Shown here piece by piece: positions 35,929-63,063 of a DNA stretch of 64,000 bases (position 1 is the stretch's first letter; every line of letters begins with the position of its first letter). The notes beneath the pieces were generated by a model that was given only the letters and a program-made list of their open reading frames with translations, made no database searches and was not told where the DNA came from. The DNA comes from Escherichia coli (GTDB taxonomy: Bacteria > Pseudomonadota > Gammaproteobacteria > Enterobacterales > Enterobacteriaceae), in assembly GCF_003334305.1 (NCBI RefSeq), contig NZ_QOWS01000001.1; one strand, written 5' to 3'. Made by a program: the position numbers and the translations under genes.

Positions 35929-36204
35929 ATGAGCAAGCAAGTAACACTCATGACTGATGCGATTCCTTATCAGGAGTTCGCAAAACTAATAGGAAAATCG
36001 ACAGGAGCGGTTCGTCGGATGATCGATAAAGGAAAGCTGCCTGTAATTGATATGACCGATCCACAATCAGCTTCAGGTCGTGCAGGTGAATATTGGGTAT
36101 ACCTTCCGGCATGGAATAACGGACTAAAACTGGCTTATGAAAGCCGCCCTAAAGAGATTCGTGACGGCTGGTTGATGTGGTTAGGTCTCGGTGAACCACG
36201 TTAA
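35929..36204 (+). CDS. cox: P2-like Cox (excisionase / repressor of Pc)
   Basis: 91 aa; first gene of the early rightward operon. Confidence 0.85.
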   Translation: MSKQVTLMTDAIPYQEFAKLIGKSTGAVRRMIDKGKLPVIDMTDPQSASGRAGEYWVYLPAWNNGLKLAYESRPKEIRDGWLMWLGLGEPR

Positions 36205-36214
36205 GGAGAACCGT

Positions 36215-36385
36215 ATGAATGAGCCTCGTTGTATTGCTCAGTTACTGCGTAACGAAAGCCCCAGGGCGATTGACTTCACCATCACCCACGGTAAGGGGCG
36301 TAAGGGAATCATTATCCGCACCAAAAAACAGAGTCCGTTAAAAAAGGCTCTGACCTTTCTGAAAAGCCGGAGGGTATGGAAATGA
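36215..36385 (+). CDS. Small early protein (P2 orf78-like)
   Basis: ATG after AAGGAG; position between cox and B. Confidence 0.5.
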   Translation: MNEPRCIAQLLRNESPRAIDFTITHGKGRKGIIIRTKKQSPLKKALTFLKSRRVWK

Positions 36386-36882
36386 CAGTGATGACGCTCA
36401 ATCTCGTTGAAAAACAGCCAGCAGCTATGCGCCGGATAATTGGTAAGCATCTTGCCGTTCCTCGCTGGCAGGATACATGTGATTATTATAATCAGATGAT
36501 GGAGCGCGAACGGTTAACGGTTTGCTTCCATGCTCAGTTAAAACAGCGTCACGCAACGATGTGTTTTGAAGAAATGAACGACGTCGAACGTGAACGACTG
36601 GTATGTGCAATTGATGAATTGCGTGGTGCATTCTCAAAACGCCGTCAGGTTGGCGCAAGTGAGTATGCATATATTAGTTTTTTAACAGTCAGTCAGCGTC
36701 GTACTTTATTTATGCATGCCGGATTGACTGAAAAAGAATTCAACCAGCCATACTGGCGAATTAATGAAGAGTCATGTTACTGGCGTGATGCTTTATTCCG
36801 TGCATTACGTGAATTATTCAGTCTGTTTGAGTATGCACCGACAATTCTGACGTCGGTAAAACCGGAGCAATATCTGCATTAA
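36376..36882 (+). CDS. B: P2-like replication gene B protein
   Basis: 168 aa, position between cox and A. Confidence 0.75.
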   Translation: MEMTVMTLNLVEKQPAAMRRIIGKHLAVPRWQDTCDYYNQMMERERLTVCFHAQLKQRHATMCFEEMNDVERERLVCAIDELRGAFSKRRQVGASEYAYISFLTVSQRRTLFMHAGLTEKEFNQPYWRINEESCYWRDALFRALRELFSLFEYAPTILTSVKPEQYLH

Positions 36883-36945
36883 GTAATTAACCAGAGTTTT
36901 TAACGCACTTAATTGTGCGGGGCTTCTTTTTGCCTGGAGAAAGTT

Positions 36946-37170
36946 ATGCATACAGTTTCTGAAAATCAGTGCGGTATATACGCATTACTGCTGCAACAGG
37001 CCAGAACCGAAGCACAGGCCGACGCTGCGACGCGCTTTTCTTCTCATCTTGATGCCATGATTCGCCACATCACAAAGGCGGAGTTATCCCGCGTGGAGAT
37101 AGTCGAGCTGCTCAGTCAGGAGTCGGAAAAATTTCACAATATCGGATTGTCTCGCGGGGAGGTGCTTTGA
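36946..37170 (+). CDS. Small early protein (P2 orf80-like)
   Basis: About 74 aa from MHTVSENQ after GGAGAAAG. Confidence 0.5.
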
Positions 37171-37472
37171 TGTTCTGTTCTCGTGCAGTTGTATTACTGA
37201 ATAACGCCTTAAAAATCGCCGTTATGAAAAATGGCGATTTGTCTCTTATTCAACTTGGTCTTGATAAAGAAAAACGCGAAATAACTGAATCTGTTATCGC
37301 GATTTATCAGAGTGAATTAAACCTCCTGTCTGATGTGGTCAATTTACTTGTTAAACGCGCTGTATTTCACAAGCAAATTTCCTCCGTGGATGAACTGACG
37401 AAATTAACGACAGAAATCGCCAGCTATTGCGCTGATGAATTTAAAAAACTGAACGACAAAAGGAACTGGTAA
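37167..37472 (+). CDS. Small early protein (P2 orf81-like)
   Basis: 101-aa ORF, 4-bp overlap with upstream gene. Confidence 0.5.
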
Positions 37473-37696
37473 TGCCGGACAACGTAGATTTTATTCAGGA
37501 ACAACAGGCTGAATTACTGGAGCGCCAGATTAACGCGGCAAGGGTAAAACATTGCGGTGCTTCTGCGCTGGTTTGCGAAGAGTGTGACGCGCCAATACCT
37601 GCTGCCCGTCGTGCGGCTTACCCGTCAGCCACGCGTTGTGTTTCCTGTCAGTCAGTCTTTGAAGCAAAAAACAAACATTACCGGAGAACGGCATGA
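37472..37696 (+). CDS. TraR/DksA-type C4 zinc-finger protein (P2 orf82-like)
   Basis: CGASALVCEECDAPIPAARRAAYPSATRCVSC four-cysteine motif. Confidence 0.7.
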   Translation: MPDNVDFIQEQQAELLERQINAARVKHCGASALVCEECDAPIPAARRAAYPSATRCVSCQSVFEAKNKHYRRTA

Positions 37697-37968
37697 GTAT
37701 TCGTATTGAAATTGGCGAACGTTATGTCGTTACCAGTGACAGCTTTCAGTTTATTCTCCACGAGAAAAAGAGAGCGGAAAGCGGTAAAAACGCCGGTCAG
37801 GAATGGCTGGCGGTGGTTGGTTATTACCCGAAATTAAGCCAGCTCGTTTCAGGCCTGATGCATCACGATATTCTGACCGGAAGCGCAAAGTCTTTTGCTG
37901 ATTTAAACGTGCAGGTTGAGCAACTCAGCAAGCGTTGTTCAGAGGCTTTTGGCTCATATGGCCGTTAA
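37693..37968 (+). CDS. Small early protein (P2 orf83-like)
   Basis: 91-aa ORF overlapping the start of A. Confidence 0.5.
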   Translation: MSIRIEIGERYVVTSDSFQFILHEKKRAESGKNAGQEWLAVVGYYPKLSQLVSGLMHHDILTGSAKSFADLNVQVEQLSKRCSEAFGSYGR

Positions 37969-40243
37969 AGCCTCCGGGCGTTTTGTCCCTCCGTCAGCAT
38001 TTGCCGCAGGCACCGGTAAGATGTTTACCGGTGCTTATGCATGGAACGCGCCACGCGAGGCCGTCGGGCGCGAAAGACCCCTTACACGTGACGAGATGCG
38101 TCAGATGCAAGGTGTTTTATCCACGATTAACCGCCTGCCTTACTTTTTGCGCTCGCTGTTTACTTCACGCTATGACTACATCCGGCGCAATAAAAGCCCG
38201 GTGCACGGGTTTTATTTCCTCACATCCACTTTTCAGCGTCGTTTATGGCCGCGCATTGAGCGTGTGAATCAGCGCCATGAAATGAACACCGACGCGTCGT
38301 TGCTGTTTCTGGCAGAGCGTGACCACTATGCGCGCCTGCCGGGAATGAATGACAAGGAGCTGAAAAAGTTTGCCGCCCGTATCTCATCGCAGCTTTTCAT
38401 GATGTATGAGGAACTCAGCGATGCCTGGGTGGATGCACATGGCGAAAAAGAATCGCTGTTTACGGATGAGGCGCAGGCTCACCTCTATGGTCATGTTGCT
38501 GGCGCTGCACGTGCTTTCAATATTTCCCCGCTTTACTGGAAAAAATACCGTAAAGGACAGATGACCACGAGGCAGGCATATTCTGCCATTGCCCGTCTGT
38601 TTAACGATGAGTGGTGGACTCATCAGCTCAAAGGCCAGCGTATGCGCTGGCATGAGGCGTTACTGATTGCTGTCGGGGAGGTGAATAAAGACCGTTCTCC
38701 TTATGCCAGTAAACATGCCATTCGTGATGTGCGTGCACGCCGCCAGGCAAATCTGGAATTTCTTAAATCGTGTGACCTTGAAAACAGGGAAACCGGCGAG
38801 CGCATCGACCTTATCAGTAAGGTGATGGGCAGTATTTCTAATCCTGAAATTCGCCGGATGGAGCTGATGAACACCATTGCCGGTATTGAGCGTTACGCCG
38901 CCGCAGAGGGTGATGTGGGGATGTTTATCACGCTTACCGCGCCTTCAAAGTATCACCCGACACGTCAGGTCGGAAAAGGCGAAAGTAAAACCGTCCAGCT
39001 AAATCACGGCTGGAACGATGAGGCATTTAATCCAAAGGATGCGCAGCGTTATCTCTGCCATATCTGGAGCCTGATGCGCACGGCATTCAAAGATAATGAT
39101 TTACAGGTCTACGGTTTGCGTGTCGTCGAGCCACACCACGACGGAACGCCGCACTGGCATATGATGCTTTTTTGTAATCCACGCCAGCGTAACCAGATTA
39201 TCGAAATCATGCGTCGCTATGCGCTCAAAGAGGATGGCGACGAAAGAGGAGCCGCGCGAAACCGTTTTCAGGCAAAACACCTTAACCAGGGCGGTGCTGC
39301 GGGGTATATCGCGAAATACATCTCAAAAAACATCGATGGCTATGCACTGGATGGTCAGCTCGATAACGATACCGGCAGACCGCTGAAAGACACTGCTGCG
39401 GCTGTTACCGCATGGGCGTCAACGTGGCGCATCCCACAATTTAAAACGGTTGGTCTGCCGACAATGGGGGCTTACCGTGAACTACGCAAATTGCCTCGCG
39501 GCGTCAGCATTGCTGATGAGTTTGACGAGCGCGTCGAGGCTGCACGCGCCGCCGCAGACAGTGGTGATTTTGCGTTGTATATCAGCGCGCAGGGTGGGGC
39601 AAATGTCCCGCGCGATTGTCAGACTGTCAGGGTCGCCCGTAGTCCGTCGGATGAAGTTAACGAGTACGAGGAAGAAGTCGAGAGAGTGGTCGGCATTTAC
39701 GCGCCGCATCTCGGCGCGCGTCATATTCATATCACCAGAACGACGGACTGGCGCATTGTGCCGAAAGTTCCGGTCGTTGAGCCTCTGACTTTAAAAAGCG
39801 GCATCGCCGCGCCTCGGAGTCCTGTCAATAACTGTGGAAAGCTCACCGGTGGTGATACTTCGTTACCGGCTCCCACACCTTCTGAACACGCCGCAGCAGT
39901 GCTTAATCTGGTTGATGACGGTGTTATCGAATGGAATGACCCGGAGGTCGTGAGGGCGCTCAGGGGCGCATTAAAATACGGGCTGAGAACACCAAATCGT
40001 CAGCAGAGAAACGGAAGCCCGTTAAAACCACATGAAATTGCACCATCGGCCAGACTGACCCGGTCGGAAAGAATGCAAATTACCCGTATCCGCGTTGACC
40101 TTGCTCAGAACGGTATCAGGCCGCAGCGATGGGAGCTTGAGGCGCTGGCGCGTGGCGCGACCGTAAATTATGACGGGAAAAAATTCACGTATCCGGTCGC
40201 TGATGAGTGGCCGGGATTCTCAACAGTAATGGCGCGGATATAA
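37958..40243 (+). CDS. A: P2-like replication initiation endonuclease A (rolling-circle)
   Basis: About 761 aa from MAVKASGRF; HxH-type motif TPHWHMMLF and tyrosine pair GYIAKYISK. Confidence 0.9.
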   Translation: MAVKASGRFVPPSAFAAGTGKMFTGAYAWNAPREAVGRERPLTRDEMRQMQGVLSTINRLPYFLRSLFTSRYDYIRRNKSPVHGFYFLTSTFQRRLWPRIERVNQRHEMNTDASLLFLAERDHYARLPGMNDKELKKFAARISSQLFMMYEELSDAWVDAHGEKESLFTDEAQAHLYGHVAGAARAFNISPLYWKKYRKGQMTTRQAYSAIARLFNDEWWTHQLKGQRMRWHEALLIAVGEVNKDRSPYASKHAIRDVRARRQANLEFLKSCDLENRETGERIDLISKVMGSISNPEIRRMELMNTIAGIERYAAAEGDVGMFITLTAPSKYHPTRQVGKGESKTVQLNHGWNDEAFNPKDAQRYLCHIWSLMRTAFKDNDLQVYGLRVVEPHHDGTPHWHMMLFCNPRQRNQIIEIMRRYALKEDGDERGAARNRFQAKHLNQGGAAGYIAKYISKNIDGYALDGQLDNDTGRPLKDTAAAVTAWASTWRIPQFKTVGLPTMGAYRELRKLPRGVSIADEFDERVEAARAAADSGDFALYISAQGGANVPRDCQTVRVARSPSDEVNEYEEEVERVVGIYAPHLGARHIHITRTTDWRIVPKVPVVEPLTLKSGIAAPRSPVNNCGKLTGGDTSLPAPTPSEHAAAVLNLVDDGVIEWNDPEVVRALRGALKYGLRTPNRQQRNGSPLKPHEIAPSARLTRSERMQITRIRVDLAQNGIRPQRWELEALARGATVNYDGKKFTYPVADEWPGFSTVMARI

Positions 40244-55407: not shown

Positions 55408-56011
55408 TTCGCGCCTGCTGCCGACCGGCTCATCACCGCTTGAAATTGCTGCCGCGAAAGCCTGTGCGGAAATTGAAAAAACGCCGGTCAGTATTCGTGA
55501 GCTGTGGAACCCGGACACCTGCCCGGCAAATCTGCTGCCGTGGCTGGCGTGGGCCTTTTCGGTCGACAGGTGGGATGAAAAGTGGCCGGAAGCGACAAAA
55601 CGCGCCGTTATCCGCGATGCCTATTTCATCCACTGTCATAAGGGTACTGTCGGCGCAATCCGGCGTGTTGTGGAGCCGCTCGGCTATCTGATTGAAGTGA
55701 GGGAGTGGTGGCAGCTCAACGAGGAGCCGGGGACGTTCCGTATCGTTGTTGGCGTGCTTGAGCAGGGTATTACCGAAGAAATGTATCTGGAGCTGGAACG
55801 TCTCGTTGCTGATGCAAAACCGGCGAGCCGCCATCTGACGGGACTGGCTATCAGTTTAAGTACAACCGGCAACATTTTTGCCGGAACGGGATGCTATCAC
55901 GGTGACGCCCTGACGGTTTATCCCTACACCCCGGAGGCCATTATTGTCGGAGGGGATTATTTCCCGGCCTCGGTCATTCATTTAATTGATAACCTGAGAG
56001 TAAACGCATGA
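55400..56011 (+). CDS. I: Baseplate protein I
   Basis: 203-aa ORF overlapping J end and H start. Confidence 0.8.
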   Translation: MSDSRLLPTGSSPLEIAAAKACAEIEKTPVSIRELWNPDTCPANLLPWLAWAFSVDRWDEKWPEATKRAVIRDAYFIHCHKGTVGAIRRVVEPLGYLIEVREWWQLNEEPGTFRIVVGVLEQGITEEMYLELERLVADAKPASRHLTGLAISLSTTGNIFAGTGCYHGDALTVYPYTPEAIIVGGDYFPASVIHLIDNLRVNA

Positions 56012-57687
56012 CAGTGAAATACTACGCCATTCTGACTAATCAGGGCGCAGCACGACTGGCTAACGCGACGATGCTCGGCAGTAAGCTGAATCTGACGCAA
56101 ATGGCCGTTGGTGATGCGAATGGTGTATTACCGACACCAGACCCGGCACAGACAAAACTGATTAACCAGAAACGCATTGCACCGCTGAATCTTCTGAGTG
56201 TTGACCCTAACAATCAGAGCCAGATTATTGCGGAGCAAATTATCCCTGAAAACGAGGGAGGATTCTGGATCCGTGAGATTGGGCTTTATGATGATGAAGG
56301 CGTACTCATTGCGGTGGCGAACTGCCCGGAAACGTACAAACCGCAGTTGCAGGAAGGCAGTGGTCGTACCCAGACTATCCGCATGATTCTGGTTGTCTCG
56401 AATACCGAAGCCATCACGCTGAAAATCGATCCGTCGGTGGTACTGGCGACCCGTAAATATGTGGATGACAAAATCTCAGAACACGAACAGTCACGACGAC
56501 ACCCGGATGCATCGCTGACCGCAAAAGGTTTTACTCAGTTAAGCAGCGCAACCAACAGCACGTCTGAAACACTGGCCGCAACGCCGAGAGCGGTAAAGAT
56601 CGCGTATGACCTTGCTAACGGGAAATATACTGCACAGGACGCGACCACAGCGCGAAAAGGTCTTGTCCAGCTCAGTAGCGCCACCAACAGCGATTCTGAA
56701 ACGCTTGCGGCAACGCCAAAGGCGGTAAAGACAGCATATGACCTTGCTAACGGGAAATATACCGCACAGGACGCGACCACAGCGCGAAAAGGCCTTGTCC
56801 AGCTCAGCAGCGCCACTAACAGCACGTCAGAAACGCAGGCTGCCACACCAAAAGCCGTGAAGGCTGTATATGACCTTGCCAATGGAAAACAACCTGCCGA
56901 CGCCACACTGACCGCACTGGCAGGCCTTGCCACTGCGGCAGACAAACTACCGTATTTTACGGGGAATGATACAGCCAGCCTGACAACCCTGACTAATGTT
57001 GGACGGGATATTCTGGCTAAAACAAGCAAACAGGAGGTTATTCATTATCTTGGTTTGGGAGCTACAAACGGATACGTGGGACGCTTGGTGAATACCCGGG
57101 TTTTCACGTCATCAGGTACGTACACCCCGACACCAGGAACAAAACGGATCAGGGTCACAATAACGGGCGGCGGTGGCGGAGGGGGTGGCTGCCAGGCTAT
57201 ATCCAGTAACGAAACGTTTTTCGGTGCTGGCGGTGGGGCCGGAGGGACAGTAATCACCATACTGACCCCGACACAGAATAGTTATCCTGTCACTATCGGC
57301 GCAGGTGGGGCCGGCGGCGTTGGTGCGACGAACGGCCTCAAGGGCGGTGATAGCTCGTTCGGATCGGTAATAGCCCCTGGTGGTGAAGGCGGCGGAAAAG
57401 TAGGAGTCACAAACACAAACGGCGGTAACGGAGGCGTACCGAATATTGGCGATATCCGCATCACTGGTGGAGATGGAGGCGACGGTCAGTCCGGGAATAT
57501 CAGCGTCAGCGGTGAAGGCGGTGCATCGTACTGGGGAGGCGGTGGACGTGCAGGCGCTGGCGGTGGCGTTAGAGGCAGGGCATTTGGTTCAGGCGGAGGT
57601 GGTGCATACGATGCAGGTTATAGCGGAACCAGTATGACGGGCGGGAAAGGTGCTGATGGGGTTTGTATTATCGAGGAGTTTGCATAA
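56008..57687 (+). CDS. H: Tail fibre protein with internal tandem repeats and Gly-rich C-terminal domain
   Basis: 559 aa; conserved N-terminus MTVKYYAILTNQGAARLANA; three ~44-aa repeats (QLSSATNS.SETLAATP.AVK.AYDLANGKYTAQDATTARKG); C-terminal third dominated by GGxGG runs. Confidence 0.88.
   Translation: MTVKYYAILTNQGAARLANATMLGSKLNLTQMAVGDANGVLPTPDPAQTKLINQKRIAPLNLLSVDPNNQSQIIAEQIIPENEGGFWIREIGLYDDEGVLIAVANCPETYKPQLQEGSGRTQTIRMILVVSNTEAITLKIDPSVVLATRKYVDDKISEHEQSRRHPDASLTAKGFTQLSSATNSTSETLAATPRAVKIAYDLANGKYTAQDATTARKGLVQLSSATNSDSETLAATPKAVKTAYDLANGKYTAQDATTARKGLVQLSSATNSTSETQAATPKAVKAVYDLANGKQPADATLTALAGLATAADKLPYFTGNDTASLTTLTNVGRDILAKTSKQEVIHYLGLGATNGYVGRLVNTRVFTSSGTYTPTPGTKRIRVTITGGGGGGGGCQAISSNETFFGAGGGAGGTVITILTPTQNSYPVTIGAGGAGGVGATNGLKGGDSSFGSVIAPGGEGGGKVGVTNTNGGNGGVPNIGDIRITGGDGGDGQSGNISVSGEGGASYWGGGGRAGAGGGVRGRAFGSGGGGAYDAGYSGTSMTGGKGADGVCIIEEFA
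56509..56904 (+). repeat. Three tandem ~132-bp coding repeats inside H
   Basis: Near-identical units beginning GCGACCACAGCGCGAAAAGG at 56641 and 56773, with a more diverged first copy from about 56509. Confidence 0.8.
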
Positions 57688-59620: not shown

Positions 59621-60139
59621 ATGGCAATGCCGCGCAAACTCAAGTTAATGAACGTCTTTCTGAACGGCTACAGCTATCAGGGCGTTGCAAAGTCCGTCAC
59701 GCTGCCAAAACTGACCCGTAAGCTCGAAAACTATCGCGGTGCTGGGATGAACGGCAGCGCACCGGTAGACCTCGGCCTTGATGACGATGCGCTGTCAATG
59801 GAGTGGTCGCTCGGGGGCTTCCCGGATTCGGTTATCTGGGAGCTTTACGCCGCAACCGGTGTGGATGCCGTGCCGATTCGTTTTGCTGGCTCTTACCAGC
59901 GTGACGATACCGGCGAAACGGTGGCCGTCGAAGTGGTCATGCGTGGCCGTCAGAAAGAAATCGACACCGGCGAGGGTAAACAGGGAGAAGACACCGAGTC
60001 GAAAATCTCCGTGGTCTGTACCTATTTCCGGCTGACGATGGACGGTAAGGAGCTGGTCGAAATCGACACCATCAACATGATTGAGAAGGTGAACGGCGTC
60101 GACCGGCTGGAGCAACACCGCCGAAATATCGGCCTGTGA
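59621..60139 (+). CDS. FII: Tail tube protein
   Basis: 172 aa; position. Confidence 0.9.
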   Translation: MAMPRKLKLMNVFLNGYSYQGVAKSVTLPKLTRKLENYRGAGMNGSAPVDLGLDDDALSMEWSLGGFPDSVIWELYAATGVDAVPIRFAGSYQRDDTGETVAVEVVMRGRQKEIDTGEGKQGEDTESKISVVCTYFRLTMDGKELVEIDTINMIEKVNGVDRLEQHRRNIGL

Positions 60140-60195
60140 TTTTCATCCGGTCAGCCTGGCTGACCGGTTAACCCTGATTCAGAAGTGAGAAAACC

Positions 60196-60471
60196 ATGAA
60201 CAAAGAAAATGTGATTACCCTGGACAATCCGGTCAAGCGTGGTGAGCAGGTTATCGAACAGGTCACGCTGATGAAACCTAATGCCGGGACGCTGCGCGGT
60301 GTCAGTCTGGCTGCGGTCGCAAACTCCGAAGTCGATGCGCTGATTAAGGTGCTGCCGCGCATGACTGCACCGATGCTGACCGAGCAGGAAGTCGCCGCGC
60401 TGGAACTGCCTGACCTTGTGGCGCTGGCCGGTAAGGTGGTCGGTTTTTTGTCGCCGAACTCGGTGCAGTGA
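60196..60471 (+). CDS. E: Tail assembly chaperone E
   Basis: 91 aa ending ...KVVGFLSPNSVQ. Confidence 0.85.
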   Translation: MNKENVITLDNPVKRGEQVIEQVTLMKPNAGTLRGVSLAAVANSEVDALIKVLPRMTAPMLTEQEVAALELPDLVALAGKVVGFLSPNSVQ

Positions 60472-60623
60472 CGTTTCCGAAAAATCTGTCGGTCGATGAC
60501 CTGATGGCGGATGTGGCAGTGATATTTCACTGGCCGCCATCAGAACTGTATCCCATGAGCCTGACCGAACTCATCACATGGCGCGAAAAGGCGCTCCGGC
60601 GAAGCGGAAACACGAATGAGTAA
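60196..60623 (+). CDS. E': E+E' fusion produced by programmed -1 ribosomal frameshift
   Basis: Slippery run TTTTTTG at 60444-60450 inside E; the -1 frame stays open to TAA at 60621-60623, overlapping the T start; total about 142 aa. Confidence 0.75.
60444..60450 (+). other. Programmed -1 frameshift slippery heptamer (T6G)
   Basis: GGTTTTTTG in frame G-GTT-TTT-TG near the 3' end of E. Confidence 0.75.
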
Positions 60624-63063
60624 CAATGTAAAATTACAGGTATTGCTCAGGGCTGTTGACCAGGCATCCCGCCCGTTTAAATCCATCCGTACAGCGAGCA
60701 AGTCGCTGTCGGGGGATATCCGGGACACACAAAAATCACTGCGCGAGCTGAACGGTCACGCATCCCGTATTGAGGGATTTCGCAAGACCAGCGCACAGCT
60801 CGCCGTGACTGGTCATGCACTTGAGAAGGCACGGCTGGAAGCCGAAGCCCTTGCCACACAGTTTAAAAATACCGAACGTCCGACCCGTGCTCAGGCGAAA
60901 GTGCTGGAATCCGCAAAGCGAGCGGCGGAGGACTTACAGGCGAAATATAACCGCCTGACGGATTCCGTTAAACGCCAGCAGCGGGAGCTGGCCGCTGTGG
61001 GAATTAATACCCGCAATCTTGCACATGATGAGCAGGGACTGAAAAACCGTATCAGTGAAACCACCGCACAGCTTAACCGGCAGCGTGACGCGCTGGCGCG
61101 TGTCAGTGCGCAACAGGCAAAACTTAATGCAGTAAAACAGCGTTATCAGGCCGGAAAGGAACTGGCCGGAAATATGGCCTCAGTGGGCGCTGCCGGTGTG
61201 GGGATTGCTGCTGCGGGAACGATGGCCGGAGTTAAGTTGCTGATGCCCGGTTATGAGTTTGCGCAGAAAAACTCAGAATTGCAGGCCGTGCTCGGTGTGG
61301 CAAAAGACTCCGCCGAAATGACCGCACTCCGCAAACAGGCGCGCCAGCTCGGCGACAACACCGCCGCCTCAGCGGATGATGCGGCTGGTGCGCAGATTAT
61401 CATTGCGAAAGCGGGTGGAGATGCTGCGGCTATTCAGGCGGCAACGCCGGTCACGCTGAATATGGCGCTGGCGAACCGCCGCACGATGGAAGAAAACGCC
61501 GCCCTGCTGATGGGGATGAAATCCGCCTTTCAGCTTTCAAACGATAAGGTCGCTCATATCGGGGATGTTCTCTCCATGACGATGAACAAAACCGCCGCCG
61601 ATTTTGACGGTATGAGCGATGCGCTGACCTATGCTGCACCTGTGGCAAAAAATGCCGGTGTCAGCATTGAAGAAACCGCCGCAATGGTCGGAGCGCTGCA
61701 TGATGCAAAAATCACAGGCTCAATGGCGGGGACGGGAAGCCGTGCCGTATTAAGCCGCCTGCAGGCACCGACGGGAAAAGCATGGGATGCACTCAAAGAG
61801 CTTGGAGTGAAAACCTCAGACAGCAAGGGAAACACCCGGCCAATATTTACCATTCTGAAAGAAATGCAGGCCAGTTTTGAGAAAAACCGGCTCGGTACTG
61901 CCCAGCAGGCTGAATACATGAAAACTATTTTCGGGGAGGAGGCCTGCTCAGCCGCTGCCGTGCTGATGACTGCCGCCTCAACCGGAAAGCTGGACAAACT
62001 GACCGCTGCGTTTAAAGCCTCAGACGGGAAGACCGCCGAGCTGGTAAATATCATGCAGGACAACCTAGGCGGTGACTTTAAAGCGTTTCAGTCCGCTTAT
62101 GAGGCGGTGGGGACTGACCTGTTTGACCAGCAGGAAGGCGCGCTGCGTAAGCTCACGCAGACGGCCACAAAGTATGTGTTAAAACTCGACGGCTGGATAC
62201 AGAAAAACAAATCACTGGCGTCAACCATCGGCATCATTGCCGGCGGTGCACTGGCGCTTACTGGCATCATCGGTGCCATTGGCCTCGTAGCCTGGCCGGT
62301 TATCACCGGCATCAATGCCATCATCGCGGCAGCAGGCGCAATGGGGGCAGTCTTCACGACGGTTGGCAGTGCTGTTATGACCGCCATCGGGGCTATTAGC
62401 TGGCCGGTTGTGGCCGTGGTGGCTGCCATTGTCGCCGGTGCGTTGCTTATCCGTAAATACTGGGAGCCTGTCAGCGCATTCTTTGGTGGTGTGGTTGAAG
62501 GGCTGAAAGCGGCATTTGCGCCGGTGGGGGAACTGTTCACGCCACTGAAGCCGGTGTTTGACTGGCTGGGTGAAAAGTTACAGGCCGCGTGGCAGTGGTT
62601 TAAAAACCTGATTGCCCCGGTCAAAGCCACCCAGGACACCCTGAACCGTTGCCGTGACACGGGCGTCATGTTCGGGCAGGCACTGGCTGACGCGCTGATG
62701 CTGCCGCTTAATGCGTTCAACAAACTGCGCAGTGGTATTGACTGGGTACTGGAAAAACTCGGTGTTATCAACAAAGAGTCAGACACACTTGACCAGACCG
62801 CCGCCAGAACTCAAGCCGCCACGTATGGCAGCGGTGGTTATATTCCGGCGACCAGCTCTTATGCAGGCTATCAGGCTTATCAGCCGGTCACGGCACCGGC
62901 TGGCCGCTCTTATGTAGACCAGAGTAAAAACGAATATCACATCAGCCTGACGGGTGGTACTGCGCCGGGGACACAGCTTGACCGCCAGTTACAGGATGCG
63001 CTCGAAAAATACGAGCGGGATAAACGTGCGCGCGCCCGTGCCAGCATGATGCATGACAGTTAA
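60616..63063 (+). CDS. T: Tail tape measure protein
   Basis: 815 aa; coiled-coil N-terminal region and Gly/Ala-rich hydrophobic stretch. Confidence 0.9.
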   Translation: MSNNVKLQVLLRAVDQASRPFKSIRTASKSLSGDIRDTQKSLRELNGHASRIEGFRKTSAQLAVTGHALEKARLEAEALATQFKNTERPTRAQAKVLESAKRAAEDLQAKYNRLTDSVKRQQRELAAVGINTRNLAHDEQGLKNRISETTAQLNRQRDALARVSAQQAKLNAVKQRYQAGKELAGNMASVGAAGVGIAAAGTMAGVKLLMPGYEFAQKNSELQAVLGVAKDSAEMTALRKQARQLGDNTAASADDAAGAQIIIAKAGGDAAAIQAATPVTLNMALANRRTMEENAALLMGMKSAFQLSNDKVAHIGDVLSMTMNKTAADFDGMSDALTYAAPVAKNAGVSIEETAAMVGALHDAKITGSMAGTGSRAVLSRLQAPTGKAWDALKELGVKTSDSKGNTRPIFTILKEMQASFEKNRLGTAQQAEYMKTIFGEEACSAAAVLMTAASTGKLDKLTAAFKASDGKTAELVNIMQDNLGGDFKAFQSAYEAVGTDLFDQQEGALRKLTQTATKYVLKLDGWIQKNKSLASTIGIIAGGALALTGIIGAIGLVAWPVITGINAIIAAAGAMGAVFTTVGSAVMTAIGAISWPVVAVVAAIVAGALLIRKYWEPVSAFFGGVVEGLKAAFAPVGELFTPLKPVFDWLGEKLQAAWQWFKNLIAPVKATQDTLNRCRDTGVMFGQALADALMLPLNAFNKLRSGIDWVLEKLGVINKESDTLDQTAARTQAATYGSGGYIPATSSYAGYQAYQPVTAPAGRSYVDQSKNEYHISLTGGTAPGTQLDRQLQDALEKYERDKRARARASMMHDS

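What the first reader, a model, noticed from the sequence alone, without database searches (positions are those of the whole stretch)
60444..60450. Conserved programmed -1 frameshift generating E+E' tail chaperone
Seen in sequence: the heptamer T6G lies near the end of E, and the -1 frame is open from it to a TAA at 60621-60623 that overlaps the tape-measure start codon. Established knowledge: P2 E/E' and the lambda G/GT equivalents use this mechanism. Worth noting so that E' is not missed by ORF-based annotation.
Basis: partly seen in the sequence, partly recalled or inferred. Interest (0 to 1): 0.3.

Follow-up and report, generated by a model that had tools for sequence, protein, structure and literature searches.

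The report
Known P2 tail-chaperone frameshift site
This is the well-known programmed ribosomal slip site of phage P2, sitting in a P2-like prophage of E. coli, which lets one tail-assembly gene make a short and a long protein; it is real but ordinary, and matters mainly because automatic annotation splits the long protein in two.

Summary
Confirmed and already known. The window is a P2-like (Peduovirus) prophage in the E. coli A7 chromosome. TTTTTTG lies at 60444-60450 in the phase T_TTT_TTG of gene E (60196-60471), six codons before its stop. The -1 frame is open from 60435 to the TAA at 60621-60623, 8 nt into tape-measure gene T (ATG 60616). The predicted 142-aa E+E' product is 141/142 identical to that of phage P2, whose GenBank record annotates this -1 frameshift.

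The bare pattern is not rare: 10 mechanical ORFs in the window show it. The comparative evidence is very strong. In 23 diverse and 80 further relatives, E' is always in the -1 frame with an in-phase slippery heptamer. GC-rich hosts keep the rare codons GGT-TTT-TTG (joint p about 1e-34). Five lineages have no start codon for E'. Distant relatives carry other slippery heptamers (GGGAAAG, AAATTTT).

The parts
59621..60139 (+). FII, major tail tube gene (172 aa), immediately upstream of E
   Evidence: ORF list; PGAP 'phage major tail tube protein'; P2 FII at the same relative position
60196..60471 (+). Gene E, zero-frame product of 91 aa (tail assembly chaperone family)
60435..60471 (+). 37-nt overlap in which the -1 frame is open while E is still being read; the only stretch where a -1 shift can join E to E'
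   Evidence: TAA at 60432-60434 closes the -1 frame upstream; same 37 nt as described for P2
60444..60450 (+). Slippery heptamer T_TTT_TTG, in phase with E (GGT TTT TTG)
   Evidence: invariant in 80/80 clade loci and in 19/23 diverse loci, with other in-phase heptamers in the remaining 4; codon choice far from expectation
60450..60623 (+). E' segment read in the -1 frame after the shift (57 codons, then TAA 60621-60623). Joined product E+E' = 60196..60450 plus 60450..60623, 142 aa
   Evidence: Translation; Pfam Phage_P2_GpE residues 104-139, E 2.3e-21; phrog_1756; 141/142 identical to P2 E+E'
60468..60470 (+). GTG used by PGAP as the start of a stand-alone E' CDS; most likely an internal Val codon of E+E'
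   Evidence: PGAP CDS 60468-60623; weak SD pairing, -2.6 kcal/mol against -5.0 for the E start; GTG present in only 22 of 80 clade loci, otherwise CTG/TTA/ATA/GTA/CTA/GGA; absent in 186 and in all more distant relatives
60616..63063 (+). T, tape measure gene (815 aa); its ATG lies 5 nt before the E' stop (ATGAGTAA)
   Evidence: ORF; PGAP 'phage tail tape measure protein'; P2 T at the same relative position
60501..60543 (+). Stable RNA hairpin inside the E' core coding region (10-bp outer and 6-bp inner stem), 51 nt 3' of the slip site; role unknown, not a canonical frameshift stimulator
   Evidence: dG -25 kcal/mol, z about -5.9; z -3.0 on 100 nt; kept in the P2/186/Kp4886/YenM clade but no family-wide consensus; 95.7% of cells paired against 26-63% when slid, 2 pairs with double-sided changes
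60433..60439 (+). Shine-Dalgarno-like AAGGTGG, 4 nt 5' of the heptamer; possible modulator, unproven
   Evidence: anti-SD duplex -8.9 kcal/mol; synonymous-resampling control only weakly supportive; AAGGTG kept in most of the 80 clade loci, but it encodes the conserved Lys-Val

Best explanation
This is the programmed -1 ribosomal frameshift site of the P2 tail genes E and E+E', carried by a P2-like prophage. Most ribosomes translating E read GGT TTT TTG and then six more codons to TGA 60469-60471, giving the 91-aa protein E. A minority slip back one base on T_TTT_TTG, with tRNA-Phe in the P site and tRNA-Leu in the A site re-pairing on UUU UUU. They then read GUC from 60450 and continue for 57 codons in the -1 frame to TAA 60621-60623. 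This gives the 142-aa E+E', which shares its first 85 residues with E. By analogy with lambda G/GT, the shared E part binds the tape measure protein T and the E' extension recruits the tail tube protein, with the two products made in a fixed ratio set by slip efficiency. Shown here: the geometry, near-identity to P2, family-wide conservation of the slip arrangement, and nucleotide-level selection on the heptamer. Taken from the literature: that P2 really makes both proteins and needs both. Inferred: the tandem-slippage details, the product ratio and the chaperone roles.
For: Geometry and phase. Identity to P2: 98-99% DNA identity to P2-group phages and 141/142 residues of the fused product. 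The P2 and Wphi records annotate E+E' as a join with a -1 frameshift and as an essential tail protein. Papers quoting Christie 2002 and Xu 2004 describe the same T6G, 37-nt overlap and lack of an RBS. Domains: Phage_TAC_7 plus Phage_P2_GpE; PHROG tail families. tblastn of the fused product finds 418 phage records, 401 of them with at least 80% coverage, and every full-length match listed is in two pieces. In 23 diverse loci (35-99% identity) E' is always in the -1 frame and an in-phase X_XXY_YYZ lies in the overlap: T6G in 19, and TTTTTTT, TTTTTTC, AAATTTT and GGGAAAG in one each. 80/80 further loci have an in-phase T6G despite 43 downstream and 29 upstream sequence variants. Codon choice GGT/TTT/TTG given the amino acids has p 0.0003-0.06 per T-run locus and about 1e-34 jointly over 15 lineages, including 63-67% GC hosts. 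The -1 frame is open from the heptamer to the E' core in every locus (joint shuffle p about 2.5e-6 over 17 lineages), and the -1 translation is conserved from the first codon after the heptamer. Synonymous diversity is 0 to 0.17 at the codons from 60436 to 60454.
Against: No protein-level or reporter data exist for this prophage. The primary P2 paper could not be read here and is known only through papers citing it and through GenBank notes. The bare sequence pattern is common in the window. No downstream stimulatory structure was found, and the upstream SD-like element sits at a spacing (4-5 nt) that, from my own knowledge of dnaX and prfB, is not the one associated with -1 stimulation, so slip efficiency cannot be predicted. 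The lineages used in the joint probabilities are related, so those p-values are rough.
Confidence: 0.93

Rival explanations
1. E' is a separate gene, as RefSeq annotates it. Ribosomes finishing E at TGA 60469-60471 re-initiate at the overlapping GTG 60468 (GTGA), or start at the ATG of the 'LMADV' motif, and make a free 51-aa or smaller E' with no frameshift.
For: PGAP annotates CDS 60468-60623 as 'GpE family phage tail protein'. That 51-aa protein is recorded on about 1000 contigs. GTGA stop/start overlaps are a common coupling arrangement. Many phage records annotate E' from the internal Met.
Against: The GTG occurs in only 22 of 80 clade loci and is ATA in phage 186. Its SD pairing is weak, -2.6 kcal/mol. 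The 'Met' is V, E, A, W or I in 9 of 23 loci, and 5 loci have no ATG/GTG/TTG at all between the heptamer and the E' core. The -1 frame stays open and conserved at protein level upstream of any candidate start, right back to the heptamer. This model does not explain the heptamer's nucleotide-level conservation. P2 is reported to make E+E' by frameshifting.
Confidence: 0.03
2. The long product arises from transcriptional slippage. RNA polymerase adds one extra U in the T6 run, producing a minority mRNA in which E and E' are in one frame, with junction ...GFFV...
For: The site is a homopolymer run in 21 of 23 diverse loci, and Smp131 has T7. A genomic T7 version translates into a continuous 142-aa ORF with an F-F-V junction in three draft assemblies, so the reading frames are compatible with this route.
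Against: From general knowledge, six T is shorter than the runs known to give efficient bacterial RNA polymerase slippage. Two distant relatives have replaced the run by heteropolymeric tandem-slippage heptamers, A_AAT_TTT and G_GGA_AAG, which cannot support transcript slippage but are classic ribosomal sites. All heptamers, including these two independently placed ones, are in the X_XXY_YYZ phase, which matters only for ribosomal slippage. The T7 assemblies also carry other indels and truncated neighbouring genes, so they look like homopolymer errors.
Confidence: 0.04
3. The heptamer and the open -1 frame are coincidental and have no function in this prophage.
For: The same mechanical pattern occurs about 10 times in the window. 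The prophage itself has not been shown to be inducible.
Against: Near-identity to the characterised P2 locus; conservation across 100+ relatives down to 35% identity; codon-choice p about 1e-34.
Confidence: 0.005

Closest known systems
Bacteriophage P2 genes E and E+E' (FETUD tail operon; Christie, Temple, Bartlett, Goodwin 2002, J Bacteriol 184:6522, cited in PMC3091744 and PMC3931495)
   Same: Same gene order FI-FII-E-E'-T-U-D. Same T6G heptamer 25 nt before the E stop, same 37-nt overlap, same ATGAGTAA overlap with T. Products are 91 and 142 aa, with 141/142 residues identical.
   Different: One substitution (N29 here, S29 in P2) and about 1-2% DNA divergence. The element sits as a prophage in the E. 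coli A7 chromosome. The RefSeq annotation here does not carry the joined CDS.
Lambda G / GT tail assembly chaperones and the conserved tail-gene frameshift of dsDNA phages (Levin 1993; Xu, Hendrix, Duda 2004, 2013, 2014; summarised in PMC5009743)
   Same: Two overlapping ORFs between the tail tube gene and the tape measure gene; a -1 shift on an X_XXY_YYZ heptamer near the end of the first ORF; short and long products sharing an N-terminus. One distant E homologue (Mannheimia PHL101) uses G_GGA_AAG, which I recall is the lambda G-T heptamer. The best solved-structure match of the E model is the HK97 tail assembly chaperone.
   Different: A paper states there is no amino-acid similarity to lambda G/T, and no PDB sequence hit was found. 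The heptamer is T6G rather than GGGAAAG. The host tail is contractile (myovirus). The chaperone interactions have not been demonstrated for P2 in anything I could read.
E. coli dnaX and IS3/IS911-type -1 frameshift sites
   Same: A homopolymer-type X_XXY_YYZ heptamer ending in G (A_AAA_AAG there, T_TTT_TTG here), decoded by E. coli ribosomes; an SD-like sequence lies upstream.
   Different: No stem-loop or pseudoknot 5-9 nt downstream (the same is reported for P2 in PMC3091744). The SD-like element lies 4-5 nt from the heptamer rather than the roughly 10 nt I recall for dnaX, so a stimulatory role is doubtful.

Membership tests
P2 gpE / gpE+E' (Peduoviridae; Pfam PF10109 + PF06528) | Sequence homology to P2 E and to the E' extension | tested here: met
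   141/142 identical to the P2 fused product; Phage_TAC_7 E 1.6e-11 and Phage_P2_GpE E 2.3e-21; phrog_103 and phrog_1756
P2 gpE / gpE+E' (Peduoviridae; Pfam PF10109 + PF06528) | Position between tail tube gene FII and tape measure gene T within FI-FII-E-T-U-D | tested here: met
   ORFs and PGAP products, collinear with P2
P2 gpE / gpE+E' (Peduoviridae; Pfam PF10109 + PF06528) | T6G in phase near the end of E; E' in the -1 frame extending 37 nt back into E and overlapping the T start | tested here: met
   description of P2 in PMC3931495
P2 gpE / gpE+E' (Peduoviridae; Pfam PF10109 + PF06528) | Both E and E+E' are actually produced and both are essential for tail assembly | not testable with these tools
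   Stated for P2 in its GenBank record ('essential tail protein') and attributed to Christie 2002. No data for this prophage.
Lambda G/GT-type tail assembly chaperone pair with conserved -1 frameshift (Xu et al. 2004) | Two overlapping ORFs between the major tail/tube gene and the tape measure gene, the second in the -1 frame | tested here: met
   true in all 103 related loci examined
Lambda G/GT-type tail assembly chaperone pair with conserved -1 frameshift (Xu et al. 2004) | In-phase slippery heptamer in the overlap, conserved as a feature even where its sequence changes | tested here: met
   T6G, T7, T6C, AAATTTT and GGGAAAG, all in phase; codon-choice p about 1e-34
Lambda G/GT-type tail assembly chaperone pair with conserved -1 frameshift (Xu et al. 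2004) | Second ORF lacks its own conserved start codon and ribosome binding site | tested here: met
   5/23 loci have no start codon; GTG 60468 is present in only 22/80 clade loci; SD pairing is weak
Lambda G/GT-type tail assembly chaperone pair with conserved -1 frameshift (Xu et al. 2004) | First product has the tail-assembly-chaperone fold of solved examples (e.g. HK97 TAC, 2ob9) | tested here: inconclusive
Lambda G/GT-type tail assembly chaperone pair with conserved -1 frameshift (Xu et al. 2004) | Short product binds the tape measure, the long product's extension binds the tube protein, both are absent from virions, and the ratio is fixed and low | not testable with these tools
   Known for lambda (PMC5009743); inferred for P2-like phages
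-1 frameshift sites with a 3' stimulatory RNA structure (dnaX, IS3, viral pseudoknot types) | Stable stem-loop or pseudoknot beginning about 5-9 nt after the heptamer | tested here: not met
   60451-60510 has z +0.11 and 60455-60500 has z +1.78. The only strong hairpin starts 51 nt downstream. No Rfam family match.
-1 frameshift sites with a 5' Shine-Dalgarno-like stimulator (dnaX type) | SD-like sequence at a stimulatory spacing upstream of the heptamer | tested here: inconclusive
   AAGGTGG at 60433-60439 pairs at -8.9 kcal/mol, but it lies only 4 nt from the heptamer, encodes the conserved Lys-Val, and beats synonymous controls only weakly (fraction 0.01-0.3)

The most novel reading that the evidence does not exclude
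In the P2/186 clade the frameshift may not be element-free, as P2 has been described. The conserved hairpin at 60501-60543 inside the E' core, and/or the SD-like AAGGTGG 4 nt upstream of the heptamer, could be cis-acting RNA elements. They might tune slip efficiency, or they might couple translation of the tape measure gene T (whose ATG overlaps the E' stop) to the shifted ribosomes, tying the amount of T to the amount of E+E'.
Probability: 0.1. Interest if true: 0.35.

Novelty: already known. Interest (0 to 1): 0.1.

Why it matters
Biologically it adds nothing new. The P2 E/E+E' frameshift was described in 2002 and is a standard example of the conserved tail-chaperone frameshift of tailed phages. 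Its practical value is for annotation. In this RefSeq record, and on roughly a thousand other contigs, the E' part is called as an independent 51-aa protein starting at a GTG that is not conserved. The real 142-aa product with the F-L-V junction is not found in a 15-billion-protein collection. Anyone doing proteomics, gene-content comparison or prophage-intactness scoring on P2-like prophages, which occur in about a third of complete E. coli genomes (1778 of 5426), should join the two pieces.

Tried and rejected
1. Statistical significance of the bare pattern: rejected. Ten mechanical ORFs in the window show the same configuration. Those at 36340 (A6G) and 37666 (A6C) are ordinary adjacent P2 early genes with their own ATG.
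2. Downstream stimulatory structure within 60 nt: none.
3. Rfam: only two sub-threshold chance hits, on the opposite strand.
4. A terminator-like hairpin plus T-run at 60423-60444 from the consensus scan: rejected. It has 4 G-U pairs in 8, it is absent from the MFE fold, the scan found no more sites than in shuffles, and by eye the stem is broken in phage 186.
5. NCBIfam: no model matches E, E' or the fusion.
6. PDB by sequence, with a single sequence and with profiles: nothing meaningful.
7. Foldseek of the fused model against PDB: nothing significant.
8. The primary P2 paper (Christie 2002) could not be retrieved by DOI or PMC id.
9. A first count of hairpin 'compensatory' pairs was inflated by one mis-extracted sequence. 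It was redone on 41 clean sequences.

Full report
OBSERVATION. The heptamer TTTTTTG is at 60444-60450. Gene E runs from ATG 60196 to TGA 60469-60471 (91 aa). The E frame reads GGT TTT TTG, so the heptamer is in the canonical tandem-slippage phase T_TTT_TTG, six codons before the E stop. Re-reading from G60450 in the -1 frame gives 57 sense codons and then TAA 60621-60623. The -1 frame is closed by TAA 60432-60434 just upstream. A shift that joins E to E' must therefore occur within 60435-60468, and this window holds only one in-phase X_XXY_YYZ heptamer. The tape-measure gene T starts at ATG 60616. The E' stop lies 3 nt after that ATG (ATGAGTAA), so the two ORFs overlap by 8 nt, but the TAA does not literally overlap the start codon. 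That is the only imprecision in the finding.

IS IT MORE THAN CHANCE? On its own, no. T6G occurs 15 times on the + strand of the window. The full configuration (in-phase XXXYYYZ within 15 codons of a stop, -1 frame open for at least 30 further codons) occurs 10 times among mechanical six-frame ORFs. The two A-rich examples at 36340 and 37666 turned out to be adjacent P2 early genes with their own ATG starts. The case therefore rests on homology and comparison.

IDENTITY. The region matches the E. coli A7 chromosome at 100% (NZ_CP028767.1) and P2-group phages (Peduovirus) at 98-99%. Gene order is FI (sheath), FII (tube), E, E', T (tape measure), U, D, ogr, collinear with P2. The P2 record (NC_001895) and the Wphi record annotate E+E' as a joined CDS: 'shares amino terminus with gpE; -1 frameshift; essential tail protein'. 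The P2 record also carries a misc_feature 'site of -1 translational frameshift' that maps to the base next to the heptamer. The fused product predicted here differs from that of P2 at one residue of 142 (N29/S29). Pfam finds Phage_TAC_7 on residues 7-85 and Phage_P2_GpE on 104-139. PHROGs gives tail families phrog_103 and phrog_1756. NCBIfam has no model.

LITERATURE. The primary paper (Christie et al. 2002) is not in the held library, but two open papers quote it. [quoted passage not shown] Every one of these details is reproduced in the window. The lambda G/GT paradigm, with a ratio of about 30:1, G binding the tape measure, the T domain binding the tube subunit, and neither product in virions, is summarised in PMC5009743.

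COMPARATIVE TESTS DONE HERE.
(a) tblastn of the fused product finds 418 phage records. In 401 the match covers at least 80% of the query, and every full-length match listed is in two pieces, as expected for a frame change.
(b) I compared 23 sequences from many Peduoviridae genera and relatives (hosts Escherichia, Klebsiella, Yersinia, Salmonella, Burkholderia, Ralstonia, Stenotrophomonas, Pseudomonas, Halomonas, Arsenophonus, Aeromonas, Vibrio, Acidovorax, Mannheimia; 35-99% identity). E' is in the -1 frame in all of them, and an in-phase slippery heptamer lies in the overlap in all of them. It is T_TTT_TTG in 19, T_TTT_TTT in Smp131, T_TTT_TTC in Vibrio MAR, A_AAT_TTT in a Xuanwuvirus, and G_GGA_AAG in Mannheimia PHL101.
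(c) In 80 further loci from viral metagenome contigs (65 distinct sequences, 64-100% identity), all have the -1 arrangement and an invariant in-phase T6G, although there are 43 distinct downstream and 29 distinct upstream flank variants.
(d) Given the amino acids, the codon choice that makes the T run (for example GGT TTT TTG in hosts of 63-67% GC) has probability 0.0003-0.06 per T-run locus, and about 1e-34 jointly over 15 lineage representatives. The heptamer is therefore selected as a nucleotide sequence.
(e) Synonymous diversity across 41 collinear clade sequences is 0 to 0.17 at the codons from 60436 to 60454.

RIVAL 1, E' AS A SEPARATE GENE. RefSeq/PGAP annotates a 51-aa CDS at 60468-60623 starting at GTG, and that protein is recorded on about 1000 contigs. 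Against this:
- The GTG is present in 22 of 80 clade loci; elsewhere the codon is CTG, TTA, ATA, GTA, CTA or GGA. It is absent from 186 and from more distant relatives.
- Its SD pairing is weak: -2.6 kcal/mol against -5.0 for the E start.
- The internal 'Met' that many annotators use is V, E, A, W or I in 9 of 23 loci. Five loci (Ralstonia, Arsenophonus, Vibrio MAR, Alfacinha3, PHL101) have no ATG/GTG/TTG at all between the heptamer and the E' core.
- The -1 frame is open from the heptamer to the core in every locus (joint shuffle probability about 2.5e-6 over 17 lineages).
- The -1 translation is conserved from the first codon after the heptamer, with a V/A-A/E-E-x-G motif.

RIVAL 2, TRANSCRIPTIONAL SLIPPAGE. 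This is not excluded by sequence alone. It is disfavoured because two relatives have swapped the T run for heteropolymeric heptamers that only ribosomal tandem slippage can use, and because all heptamers keep the X_XXY_YYZ phase. A fused ORF with an F-F-V junction exists in three draft assemblies. Their DNA carries T7, and two of them also have truncated tube genes and 5 gaps in 1.6 kb, which points to homopolymer assembly errors.

CIS ELEMENTS. No stable structure follows the site: z is +0.11 for 60451-60510 and +1.78 for 60455-60500. This agrees with the literature statement for P2. Rfam has nothing. Two side observations remain unresolved. First, a strong hairpin at 60501-60543 lies inside the most conserved part of E' (dG -25 kcal/mol, z about -5.9). 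It is kept in P2, Wphi, 186, Kp4886-2 and a Yersinia phage but has no consensus across the whole family. On 41 distinct clade sequences, 95.7% of cells pair against 26-63% for slid controls, two pairs show double-sided changes, and the covariation score exceeds 499/500 shuffles. However, most pairs are fixed by conserved amino acids, and the hairpin starts 51 nt past the slip site. Second, an SD-like AAGGTGG at 60433-60439 pairs with the anti-SD at -8.9 kcal/mol and is usually stronger than synonymous-codon controls, but only weakly so. It encodes the conserved Lys-Val, and its 4-5 nt spacing is not the spacing that I recall stimulating -1 shifts in dnaX.

MECHANISM. Shown here: the geometry, the homology, and the conservation of the slip arrangement. 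From the literature: P2 makes both products and needs both. Inferred: tRNA-Phe in the P site on UUU 60445-60447 and tRNA-Leu in the A site on UUG 60448-60450 re-pair one base back, and decoding resumes at GUC 60450-60452, giving ...G-F-L-V-A-E-L... Also inferred are a low long-to-short product ratio set by slip efficiency, and the roles: the shared E part binding the tape measure and the E' extension recruiting the tube protein, as for lambda G/GT.

VERDICT. This is a correct re-identification of a textbook recoding site in a near-identical copy of P2, so novelty is 'already known' and interest is low. The useful residue is the annotation point, since E' is mis-called as a stand-alone gene in RefSeq here and widely elsewhere. 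Two small untested RNA features might modulate the system.

Noticed in passing
window 60501-60543: Strong RNA hairpin (CUGAUGGCGG...CCGCCAUCAG outer stem plus a 6-bp inner stem, dG about -25 kcal/mol, z about -5.9) inside the E' core coding sequence. It is conserved in the P2/186/Kp4886/YenM clade with two double-sided compensatory changes, but is absent as a consensus in distant relatives. Function unknown; too far (51 nt) from the slip site to be a canonical stimulator.
   Followed up: partly
window 60433-60439: Shine-Dalgarno-like AAGGTGG 4 nt upstream of the slippery heptamer (-8.9 kcal/mol against the anti-SD). A similar (A/G)AGGTG is common in relatives and the Lys codon is almost always AAG, but it encodes the conserved Lys/Glu-Val and synonymous controls are only weakly exceeded.
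   Followed up: partly
window 60468-60623 (L001 3569-3724): RefSeq/PGAP annotates E' as an independent 51-aa 'GpE family phage tail protein' starting at a non-conserved GTG. This stand-alone protein is on about 1000 contigs, while the exact 142-aa F-L-V fusion is absent from a 15-billion-protein collection.
   Followed up: yes
L024, L025, L026 (draft E. coli assemblies GCA_003592095.1, GCA_019430965.1, GCA_009741525.1), gene at 601-1029: These carry a T7 run instead of T6, which makes E and E' one continuous 142-aa ORF (F-F-V junction, RJK13013.1). Two of them also have truncated tube genes and 5 gaps in 1.6 kb, so homopolymer assembly error is more likely than a real always-fused mutant.
   Followed up: partly
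L023 (Mannheimia PHL101), L020 (Xuanwuvirus P88_4B11), L010 (Smp131), L021 (Vibrio MAR): Distant E homologues have replaced T6G by other in-phase slippery heptamers at different distances from the E stop: G_GGA_AAG, A_AAT_TTT, T_TTT_TTT(G) and T_TTT_TTC. The slip function is conserved while the site itself turns over.
   Followed up: partly
window 60147-60167: 9-bp GC-rich hairpin CCGGTCAGC-CTG-GCTGACCGG in the FII-E intergenic spacer, with no T-run after it. It sits where phage 186 has an annotated 'tI; partial terminator' between its tube gene and its E homologue (L004 275-301). It may attenuate transcription into E-T-U-D.
   Followed up: no
window 60616-60623: The T start and E' stop overlap as ATGAGTAA, and SD pairing for T is weak (-3.5 kcal/mol). 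Unshifted ribosomes terminate 145 nt upstream of the T start. Translation of the tape measure could therefore be partly coupled to shifted ribosomes. By my reading of the stop contexts, a similar overlap or close abutment is present in most of the 23 relatives, but this is also common in phage late operons generally.
   Followed up: no
window 36100-38000: The early region (B, orf80-83, start of A) is 100.0% identical to phage P2 itself over 1.9 kb, whereas the tail region 60100-60700 is 98.7% identical to P2 records and slightly closer to other Peduovirus isolates. This suggests a mosaic history. The in-phase A6G (36340) and A6C (37666) sites here are just gene junctions with their own ATG starts.
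   Followed up: partly
window 56008-57687: The ORF annotated by PGAP as a tail fiber protein has a long glycine-rich C-terminal region (runs of GGGGGGG). From memory this does not resemble the P2 H protein, which would fit horizontal exchange of the receptor-binding end. Not examined.
   Followed up: no
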